Source: the human T2T-CHM13v2.0 reference genome, Homo sapiens. From it: a DNA stretch of 64,000 nt. The notes below the pieces were generated by a model that searched no databases, had not been told where the DNA came from, and saw only the letters and a program-made list of their open reading frames with translations. The stretch covers positions 32,928,001 through 32,992,000 of the forward strand of contig CP068257.2 in assembly GCA_009914755.4 (NCBI GenBank), in the 5' to 3' direction. The translations under genes and the position numbers were made by a program. How positions within the stretch are numbered: position 1 is the first letter of the stretch; every line of letters begins with the position of its first letter. This document shows positions 21,790-22,147 of the stretch, in pieces.

Positions 21790-22147
21790 GGCTGGGCGCG
21801 GTGGCTCACGCCTGTAATCCCAGCACTTTGGGAGGCCAAGGCGGGAGGATCAGGAGGTCAGGAGAATCGAGACCATCCAGGCTAACATGGTGAAACCCTA
21901 TCTCTATTAAAAATACAAAAAATTAGCCGAGCGTGGGGGGCACATGCCTGTAGTCCCAGCTACTCGGGAGACTCTGGAATGTACTACACAACACTGCAGC
22001 AGAAGTGGAAATATTTCTGGCCTAAGGGAAAGGGGCAGGAGAATTGCTTGAACCCAGGAGGCGGAGGTTGCAGTGAGCCGAGATCAAGCCACTGCACCCC
22101 AGCCTGGAAGACAGAGTGAGACTCCATCTCAAAAAAAAAAAAAAAAG
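21790..22147 (+). mobile_element. Alu (AluS-like) with a 66-bp non-Alu segment embedded in the right arm (see findings)
   Basis: 'ggctgggcgcggtggctcacgcctgtaatcccagcactttgggaggccaaggcgggaggatcagg...cccagctactcgggag | actctggaatgtactacacaacactgcagcagaagtggaaatatttctggcctaagggaaaggggc | aggagaattgcttgaacccaggaggcggaggttgcagtgagccgagatcaagccactgcacc...ctcaaaaaaaaaaaaaaaaagaaag'. Confidence 0.9.

What the first reader, a model, noticed from the sequence alone, without database searches (positions are those of the whole stretch)
21972..22037. A 66-bp segment of unique upstream DNA (20591-20656) is copied into the right arm of an Alu 1.4 kb downstream
Seen directly: 'ctctggaatgtactacacaacagtacagcagaagtggagatatttctggcctaagggaaaggggca' at 20591-20656 reappears at 21972-22037 with 63/66 identity and in the same orientation. 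The copy sits inside an otherwise canonical Alu and replaces the 8 bp 'gctgaggc' of the consensus '...ctactcgggag|gctgaggc|aggagaat...'. The right junction shares a 'ggca' microhomology between donor and Alu. No Alu consensus contains this segment, so the Alu copy is the derived one. This is the signature of a short templated insertion, as produced by microhomology-mediated break-induced replication, fork stalling and template switching, or synthesis-dependent repair using a nearby ectopic template. It is not a transposon insertion, because there is no TSD and no poly-A tail. Such local templated insertions are rarely annotated. The donor lies in a CpG-retaining, non-repeat stretch.
Basis: seen in the sequence. 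Interest (0 to 1): 0.55.

Follow-up and report, generated by a model that had tools for sequence, protein, structure and literature searches.

The report
Local DNA patch copied into Alu
A 66-base stretch of ordinary DNA was copied from 1.4 kb upstream into the middle of an old Alu repeat, a real but ordinary scar of error-prone DNA replication or break repair of a kind already catalogued in human genomes.

Summary
Bases 20591-20656 recur at 21972-22037 on the same strand with 63/66 identity. This is the only non-Alu pair above 90% identity in the 64-kb window (BLAST E about 1e-23 to 1e-26).

The second copy interrupts one complete AluS-like element (21790-22147). That Alu has its own 14-bp target-site duplication and A-tail. 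At least 16 other Alu right arms in the window keep the intact site.

The similarity stops sharply at both ends, and the flanks share no homology. The right junction has a 4-bp GGCA microhomology (chance P about 0.02). The left junction has one orphan A, or a 2-bp CT microhomology if that A is a later substitution. Only 2-9 bp of Alu were lost. The patch has no A-tail and no true target-site duplication.

My best reading is a germline, locally templated insertion made by a single switch-and-return copying tract. It fits FoSTeS/MMBIR-type or synthesis-dependent repair better than classical polymerase-theta insertions. [quoted passage not shown]

I could not obtain orthologous primate sequences, so its age and polymorphism status remain untested. 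It is a new instance of a known kind, and interest is low.

The parts
20591..20656 (+). Donor (template) segment, embedded in DNA that has no other copy in the window
   Evidence: 63/66 identical to the patch. Flanks are unrelated to the Alu flanks. 0 CpG. No Rfam family, tRNA or tandem repeat here.
21972..22037 (+). Templated patch: one collinear, ungapped copy of the donor inside the Alu right arm. The last 4 bp (GGCA, 22034-22037) are shared with the Alu consensus.
   Evidence: Differences from the donor at 21994 (C vs G), 21996 (G vs A) and 22010 (A vs G).
21971..21971 (+). Orphan base A at the left junction. The Alu consensus has G here and the donor has T. It is either an untemplated addition or a later substitution.
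   Evidence: left junction CCCAGCTACTCGGGAG|A|CTCTGG; donor ...GCTACGT|CTCTGG.
21790..21970 (+). Alu left monomer, A-rich linker and start of the right monomer, up to ...CTCGGGAG
   Evidence: consensus 1-182; Metazoa_SRP hit 21791-21906; about 9% diverged from AluS/Y consensus.
22038..22147 (+). Rest of the Alu right monomer (GGAGAATTGCTTGAACC...) and the A-tail (22131-22146, followed by G at 22147)
21776..21789 (+). 5' target-site duplication of the Alu (AAAGAAACCCCCGA)
   Evidence: 12/14 identical to 22148-22161.
22148..22161 (+). 3' target-site duplication of the Alu (AAAGAAACTCCTGA)
21241..21615 (.). Old ~370-bp interspersed repeat copy lying between donor and Alu. It is context only and not part of the event.
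   Evidence: 66% identity to 27276-27606; five other copies in the window.

Best explanation
This is a germline, locally templated insertion into an Alu. It is a non-tandem, same-strand duplication of 60-66 bp, with a 2-9 bp deletion at the target.

Proposed sequence of events:
1. An AluS-type element inserted by ordinary L1-mediated retrotransposition. This is shown by the TSD and A-tail.
2. Later, a 3' DNA end arose inside the Alu right arm at consensus positions about 181-186 (GGGAG|GCTGA|GGCA). The cause was either a stalled or collapsed replication fork or a double-strand break. This step is inferred.
3. [quoted passage not shown] It was then extended in one continuous tract of about 60-66 nt. 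The single collinear ungapped copy is shown. The priming is inferred.
4. The end returned to the Alu through the second short homology. The junctions are GGCA (4 bp) on the right, and CT (2 bp) or blunt plus one extra A on the left.
5. The product was fixed by drift.

The three differences between the copies arose afterwards, or were made by the low-fidelity synthesis itself.

Of the pathways that do this, a FoSTeS/MMBIR-type replicative switch-and-return, or a synthesis-dependent (D-loop) repair of a break, fits best. Classical polymerase-theta end joining fits worst.
For: - Two and only two copies, 95% identical, same strand, 1,381 bp apart.
- The recipient is a single Alu with contiguous consensus coordinates on either side of the patch (182 then 186) and its own TSD and A-tail. 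The patch is therefore secondary to, and inside, one element.
- At least 16 other Alu right arms in the window lack it.
- Similarity ends abruptly and the flanks are unrelated. This excludes homology-driven conversion.
- The right junction has 4 bp of microhomology, P = 0.019 under a random-join null drawn from this window.
- No hairpin-prone structure is present at either site.
- Literature fit. Localized non-tandem duplications, same or opposite strand, with or without target-site deletion and spanning 50-20,000 bases, are the second commonest local rearrangement in a human genome (PMC5829575). FoSTeS/MMBIR junctions show 0-6 bp microhomology, blunt ends or 1-3-nt insertions, and templated insertions from 7 bp to kilobases (PMC5120786).
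- The three mismatches (4.5%) argue against an in-vitro or assembly artefact.
Against: - No outgroup or population sequence could be obtained. The direction of copying rests on the Alu consensus and on the other Alus in this window, not on an empty orthologous site.
- The left junction has no clean microhomology. The orphan A needs either an untemplated addition or a later substitution.
- Sequence alone cannot separate replicative switching from break repair, or a DNA template from an RNA template.
- Whether the donor belongs to an old repeat family genome-wide could not be tested, because no repeat library or genome search was available.
Confidence: 0.8

Rival explanations
1. Capture of a free DNA or cDNA fragment by end joining at a double-strand break in the Alu. 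This would be a 'class 2 templated sequence insertion': a patch ligated in, not copied by a primed 3' end. The source could be cDNA of a local nascent transcript.
For: The patch has no TSD and no A-tail. It shows a micro-deletion at the target, one possibly untemplated nucleotide and short microhomology. That is exactly the junction signature listed for class 2 TSIPs (PMC5110952; junctions).
Against: Class 2 TSIPs are described as coming from distant genomic regions. Here the source is 1.38 kb away in cis and on the same strand, which is what a tethered 3' end sampling nearby DNA predicts. The patch ends do not coincide with splice-site-like boundaries (gt|CTCTGG and GGCA|ct). Transcription of the locus is unknown.
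Confidence: 0.11
2. [quoted passage not shown]
For: The insert is templated and direct, has 2-4 bp microhomologies and comes with a small deletion. An extra base could reflect an aborted round of synthesis.
Against: Published TMEJ insertions are 3-30 bp. They are templated typically within 30 bp of the break, with primary tracts rarely over 10 bp, and fewer than 0.1% use a distal template (PMC7165422). Here there is one uninterrupted 60-66-nt tract from 1,381 bp away.
Confidence: 0.05
3. The patch was made at the moment of Alu insertion. The L1 reverse transcriptase copying the Alu RNA jumped to a local nascent + strand RNA at GGCA, copied 66 nt, added an A, and jumped back to the Alu RNA.
For: Internal clocks cannot exclude equal age. 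If the patch were as old as the Alu, about 6.6 differences would be expected and 3 are seen (Poisson P about 0.1, my calculation, using for the Alu's non-CpG divergence of about 5%). The TSD pair differs at 2/14 against 3/66 for the patch pair. The 4-nt microhomology and a single extra A are typical of reverse-transcriptase template jumps (general knowledge, not tested).
Against: It needs two jumps, with a return to the same RNA within 2-9 nt of the departure point. It also needs an exit from the middle of the second RNA. Known L1 chimeras are single 5' switches (general knowledge). The point estimate makes the patch about half the Alu's age.
Confidence: 0.03
4. Not a real event: a chance match, an Alu subfamily feature, or an assembly or cloning chimera.
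For: None positive. Read-level support and genome-wide Alu content could not be examined.
Against: E about 1e-26. No other Alu in the window carries it. The copy differs from the donor at three sites, which an in-vitro template switch or a misassembly of identical reads would not produce.
Confidence: 0.01

Closest known systems
[quoted passage not shown]
   Same: A nearby segment is duplicated and inserted non-adjacently in its original orientation. The donor is retained, there is a small loss at the target, and the span (1.4 kb) lies within their 50-20,000-base range. One of their examples even involves Alu elements.
   Different: Theirs are polymorphic or recent differences between one human and an ape-supported ancestral reference. 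This one is already in the assembled sequence and, from its 4.5% divergence, is probably old. Ancestral state was not established here.
FoSTeS/MMBIR templated insertions at breakpoint junctions (e.g. PMC5120786)
   Same: Switch-and-return copying of a cis template. Junctions have 0-6 bp microhomology, blunt ends or 1-3 inserted bases. Tract lengths run from tens of bp to kb.
   Different: Those are seen as part of large CNVs or complex rearrangements. Here the templated insertion is the whole event, with no associated copy-number change visible in the window.
Polymerase-theta (TMEJ) templated insertions, 'TINS' (PMC7165422)
   Same: A templated direct repeat, microhomology and a small deletion.
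   Different: Size (60-66 vs 3-30 bp), template distance (1,381 bp vs typically within 30 bp) and a single long tract vs several tracts of 10 nt or less.
Class 2 templated sequence insertion polymorphisms, TSIPs (PMC5110952)
   Same: No TSD, no poly(A), micro-deletion, microhomology and a possible untemplated base at the junctions. The donor is retained.
   Different: TSIP templates are distant, often on another chromosome, and proposed to be RNA-derived. This template is local. Polymorphism was not tested.
Short-range template switches / MMB-TIs (PMC5453318, PMC7954356, PMC8421209)
   Same: Transient use of a nearby alternative template during DNA synthesis.
   Different: Those models and tools require the copied fragment to be in reverse-complement orientation and within tens to 100 bp. 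This copy is direct and 1.38 kb away.

Membership tests
Alu SINE (recipient element) | Dimeric 7SL-derived body of about 280 bp colinear with the Alu consensus | tested here: met
   288 aligned positions, about 9% divergence once the patch is removed; Metazoa_SRP hit on the left arm.
Alu SINE (recipient element) | 3' A-tail and flanking target-site duplication | tested here: met
   A16 at 22131-22146; 14-bp TSD, 12/14 identical.
Localized non-tandem duplication with target-site deletion | Second copy of a nearby segment, non-adjacent, with the donor retained | tested here: met
   two copies, 1,381 bp start to start, both present.
Localized non-tandem duplication with target-site deletion | Loss of sequence at the insertion site | tested here: met
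   2-9 bp of the Alu consensus (within GCTGAGGCA) are missing.
Localized non-tandem duplication with target-site deletion | Derived state relative to an ancestral (outgroup) arrangement | not testable with these tools
   No primate or human sequence was reachable. It is inferred only from the Alu consensus and at least 16 intact Alu sites in the window.
FoSTeS/MMBIR-type templated insertion | Microhomology (0-6 bp) or small insertions at both template-switch junctions | tested here: met
   right junction 4 bp (P = 0.019); left junction 0 bp plus a 1-nt insertion, or 2 bp.
FoSTeS/MMBIR-type templated insertion | Arises during replication or break-induced replication (dependence on replication factors, association with fork stalling) | not testable with these tools
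   Sequence cannot show this. No stall-prone hairpin was found (z-scores +0.8 to +1.6).
Pol theta TMEJ templated insertion (TINS) | Insert of 3-30 bp built from tracts of about 10 nt or less | tested here: not met
   One ungapped tract of 60-66 nt, against the criteria in PMC7165422.
Pol theta TMEJ templated insertion (TINS) | Template in flanking DNA, typically within 30 bp of the break | tested here: not met
   The template is 1,381 bp away.
TSIP class 2 | No TSD, no poly(A); NHEJ-like junctions (micro-deletion, microhomology, untemplated bases) | tested here: met
TSIP class 2 | Template from a distant genomic region; insertion polymorphic among humans | tested here: not met
   The template is local. 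Polymorphism is not testable here.
TSIP class 1 / L1-mediated retro-insertion of the patch | TSD of at least 5 bp, a poly(A) tract with an upstream signal, and a TTTT/A target | tested here: not met
   The patch ends ...AAAGGGGCA with no A-tract. The target is GGGAG/GCTGA. The flanking GGAGA...GGAGA is 4/5 intrinsic Alu sequence.
Gene conversion / NAHR | Homologous flanks on both sides of the transferred tract | tested here: not met
   local alignment of 30-100-bp flanks is no better than shuffles (p 0.31-0.97).
Short-range template switch (four-point model) / MMB-TI | Copied fragment in reverse-complement orientation, with the template within about 100 bp | tested here: not met
   The copy is direct and at 1,381 bp. 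Criteria.

The most novel reading that the evidence does not exclude
The patch was copied from RNA, not DNA. A nascent transcript of this very locus would have served as the template. This could have happened during repair of a break in the Alu, or through a double template jump of the L1 reverse transcriptase while the Alu was being inserted. That would make it a fossil of transcript-templated DNA synthesis in the primate germline, with the cis proximity explained by tethered nascent RNA.
Probability: 0.08. Interest if true: 0.45.

Novelty: new member of a known kind. Interest (0 to 1): 0.14.

Why it matters
On its own it matters little. It is one neutral-looking scar in non-coding primate DNA, and it belongs to a mutation class that long-read surveys already list as common.

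Its modest value is methodological. Alus have a known consensus, so any foreign insert inside one is self-polarising: the ancestral state is known without an outgroup. A genome-wide census of Alus with internal non-Alu patches would measure four things for germline templated insertions over tens of millions of years:
- the length of the inserts;
- the distance to their nearest donor;
- their strand bias;
- their junction-microhomology spectrum.

This locus would be one data point. It shows that single tracts of about 60 nt from a template more than 1 kb away do occur, which lies outside the polymerase-theta signature.

Tried and rejected
**Getting orthologous or other human copies. All routes failed.**
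- Exact look-up of two window ORFs spanning the patch and the donor found nothing on record.
- A 589-aa chimeric query of nine ORFs around the locus in the 5.8-billion-protein search gave no hit.
- A 24-mer and a 20-mer shared by donor and patch gave 0 hits in metagenome, prokaryotic-genome and viral contig collections.
- A positive control with an intact Alu 27-mer also found nothing in viral contigs. These collections seem to hold no primate DNA, so their silence says nothing about Alu subfamilies.

**Finding a gene in the window, to fetch primate loci through an annotated protein.**
- A codon-usage scan of all open frames showed no convincing exon. High scores occur in all frames of GC-rich stretches.
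- Chimeric queries of the 82 best frames (5,831 aa) gave no hit in PDB sequences.
A re-selected and trimmed 110-frame, 4,955-aa query then timed out.
- I ran no further search on a smaller query, because I judged the chance of success to be about 5%.

**Explanations considered and rejected.**
- Flank homology or homeology driving conversion.
- Hairpin or cruciform at the donor or target.
- A known RNA family, tRNA or tandem repeat at the donor.
- A second patched Alu at 18200-18545. Its extra length is an (A)n(TA)n(GA)n microsatellite in the linker.
- A true TSD around the patch. GGAGA/GGAGA is intrinsic Alu sequence plus the orphan A.

Full report
**Observation**

The window is primate DNA. 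It holds 22 Alu copies, no CpG island and no convincing coding exon.

The 66 bases at 20591-20656 recur at 21972-22037 on the same strand with 63/66 identity. The differences are at patch positions 23 (G/C), 25 (A/G) and 39 (G/A), as donor/patch.

A sensitive search with either copy finds only these two places in the 64 kb (E about 1e-26; the next hits are 10-15-mers with E above 0.1). In an all-against-all comparison of the window, this is the only non-Alu pair above 90% identity. All other non-Alu pairs are 66-79% identical copies of old interspersed repeats.

**Anatomy of the recipient**

The second copy sits inside a single Alu.
- Consensus positions 1-182 align to 21790-21973 and positions 186-289 to 22034-22137.
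- The left arm is recognised by the Rfam SRP model.
- With the patch removed, the element is about 9% diverged from AluS/Y consensus sequences. That is 26-27 of 288 positions, of which 11-12 are CpG transitions, leaving a non-CpG divergence of about 5%.
- It has a 16-A tail and a 14-bp target-site duplication: AAAGAAACCCCCGA at 21776-21789 and AAAGAAACTCCTGA at 22148-22161, 12/14 identical.

This was an ordinary, complete Alu insertion, and the patch lies inside it. At least 16 other Alu right arms in the window carry the uninterrupted GGGAGGCTGAGGCAGGAGAAT site and none carries the patch. The one other over-long Alu (18200-18545) owes its length to a microsatellite in the linker.

**Junctions**
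- Left junction: Alu ...CTCGGGAG | A | CTCTGGAATG... The donor reads ...GCTACGT | CTCTGGAATG...
- Right junction...AAAGG GGCA | GGAGAATTGC... The donor reads ...AAAGG GGCA | CTACTTCAG..., and the Alu consensus reads ...GCTGAGGCA | GGAGAAT.

The right junction has 4 bp of microhomology. Among 200,000 random joins drawn from this window, 1.9% have 4 bp or more.

The left junction has none if read strictly, and carries one base (A at 21971) that matches neither parent. If that A is a later G>A change in the Alu, the junction has a 2-bp CT microhomology (G-N-C-T, 3 of 4 positions). Depending on the parse, 2 to 9 bp of Alu were lost and 58-67 bp gained.

GGAGA flanks the patch on both sides, but four of those five bases are the intrinsic GGAG motifs of every Alu. 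It is therefore not a target-site duplication. The patch has no A-tail.

Beyond the 66 bp the flanks are unrelated. Local alignments of 30-100-bp flanks score no better than shuffles (p 0.31-0.97) or than random genomic 60-mers. Neither site folds better than shuffled controls as single-stranded DNA (z +0.8 to +1.6). No RNA family, tRNA or tandem repeat coincides with the donor.

**What it is**

The structure is a locally templated insertion. One uninterrupted copy of upstream DNA was placed 1,381 bp downstream in the same orientation, with a tiny deletion at the target and short or no homology at the joins.
- Homologous conversion is excluded by the unrelated flanks.
- Retrotransposition of the patch is excluded by the lack of an A-tail, a TSD and a TTTT/A target.
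- An in-vitro or assembly chimera is made unlikely by the three differences between the copies.

**Mechanism**

The steps that are shown:
- the Alu came first;
- there is a single collinear tract;
- the donor is retained;
- there is a small target deletion;
- there is 4-bp microhomology on one side.

The steps that are inferred:
- A 3' end arising in the Alu right arm disengaged and paired through a few bases with DNA 1.38 kb upstream, on the same molecule or the sister chromatid.
- It was extended by about 60 nt.
- It then returned through the second short homology.

Published replicative template-switch (FoSTeS/MMBIR) junctions show 0-6 bp microhomology, blunt ends or 1-3-nt insertions. Their templated insertions run from 7 bp to kilobases (PMC5120786). 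This event fits that range.

Classical polymerase-theta insertions are 3-30 bp and are templated typically within 30 bp of the break. Their primary tracts are rarely over 10 nt, and fewer than 0.1% use distal templates (PMC7165422). This event fails both size and distance.

MMBSearch-type events and the four-point short template-switch model require inverted copies within about 100 bp (PMC8421209; PMC5453318). This copy is direct and distant.

Class 2 templated sequence insertions share the junction signature but are described as coming from distant regions, probably via RNA (PMC5110952).

The closest published description is purely structural. [quoted passage not shown] **Age**

Three differences in 66 CpG-free bases give 4.5% pairwise divergence (Poisson 95% interval 0.9-13%), or about 2.3% per lineage. 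The Alu has about 5% non-CpG divergence from its consensus.

The point estimate puts the event at roughly half the Alu's age, which suggests it is old and probably fixed. The interval is wide, for three reasons:
- Equal age with the Alu cannot be rejected. About 6.6 differences would be expected and 3 are seen (P about 0.1, my calculation).
- Two of the three differences lie 2 bp apart and may be one event.
- Elevated mutation in phase with structural-variant breakpoints is documented (PMC4937565). Some differences may therefore date from the synthesis itself, and the event could be younger than the estimate.

**What could not be done**

The decisive test is an orthologous Alu without the patch, or a human deletion allele. 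It was out of reach.
- Exact-protein look-ups found nothing.
- A chimeric ORF search found nothing.
- Five k-mer scans of the public contig collections found nothing.
- An Alu positive control was also empty in the viral set, so these negatives are uninformative.
- Attempts to find an annotated gene in the window also failed.

**Verdict**

Its interpretation is supported as far as sequence alone allows. The thing itself is an ordinary, already-described kind of mutation, a new instance rather than a new phenomenon. Interest is low. The only mildly notable point is that the tract length and template distance lie outside the polymerase-theta signature. That favours a more processive switch-and-return synthesis.

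Noticed in passing
window 9263-9628(+), 15456-15843(-), 18551-18882(+), 21241-21615(+), 23382-23745(+), 27242-27612(+): Six diverged copies (66-79% identity) of one ~370-bp interspersed repeat lie within 18 kb. One of them sits between the donor and the Alu. From memory it resembles a MaLR (THE1/MST-type) LTR, but the family was not tested. The density seems high. The sequences between the copies show no mutual similarity, so they do not look like one tandemly duplicated unit.
   Followed up: partly
window 18200-18545: This Alu is about 60 bp too long because an (A)n(TA)n(GA)n microsatellite has grown in its mid A-rich linker. It is not a second templated patch.
   Followed up: yes
window 21992-21998 and 22090-22096: The two clustered donor/patch differences (21994 C, 21996 G) create CACTGCA, and a CTGCAG palindrome, in the patch. 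The same 7-mer occurs about 100 bp downstream in the same Alu. This could hint at a micro-conversion or at error-prone synthesis, but the 7-mer is common here (29 copies in the window), so it is probably coincidence.
   Followed up: partly
window 21967-21971 and 22038-22042: GGAGA directly flanks the patch on both sides and mimics a 5-bp target-site duplication. Four of the five bases are the GGAG motifs present at these positions in every Alu, and the fifth is the orphan A.
   Followed up: yes
window 50000-51600 and 57500-58150: These GC-richer stretches (0.51-0.57 for 50001-52000; 0.44-0.48 for 57001-59000) have long open frames in several overlapping frames on both strands. The pattern looks compositional rather than coding. 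Queries containing the best-scoring frames, including these, gave no PDB hit.
   Followed up: partly
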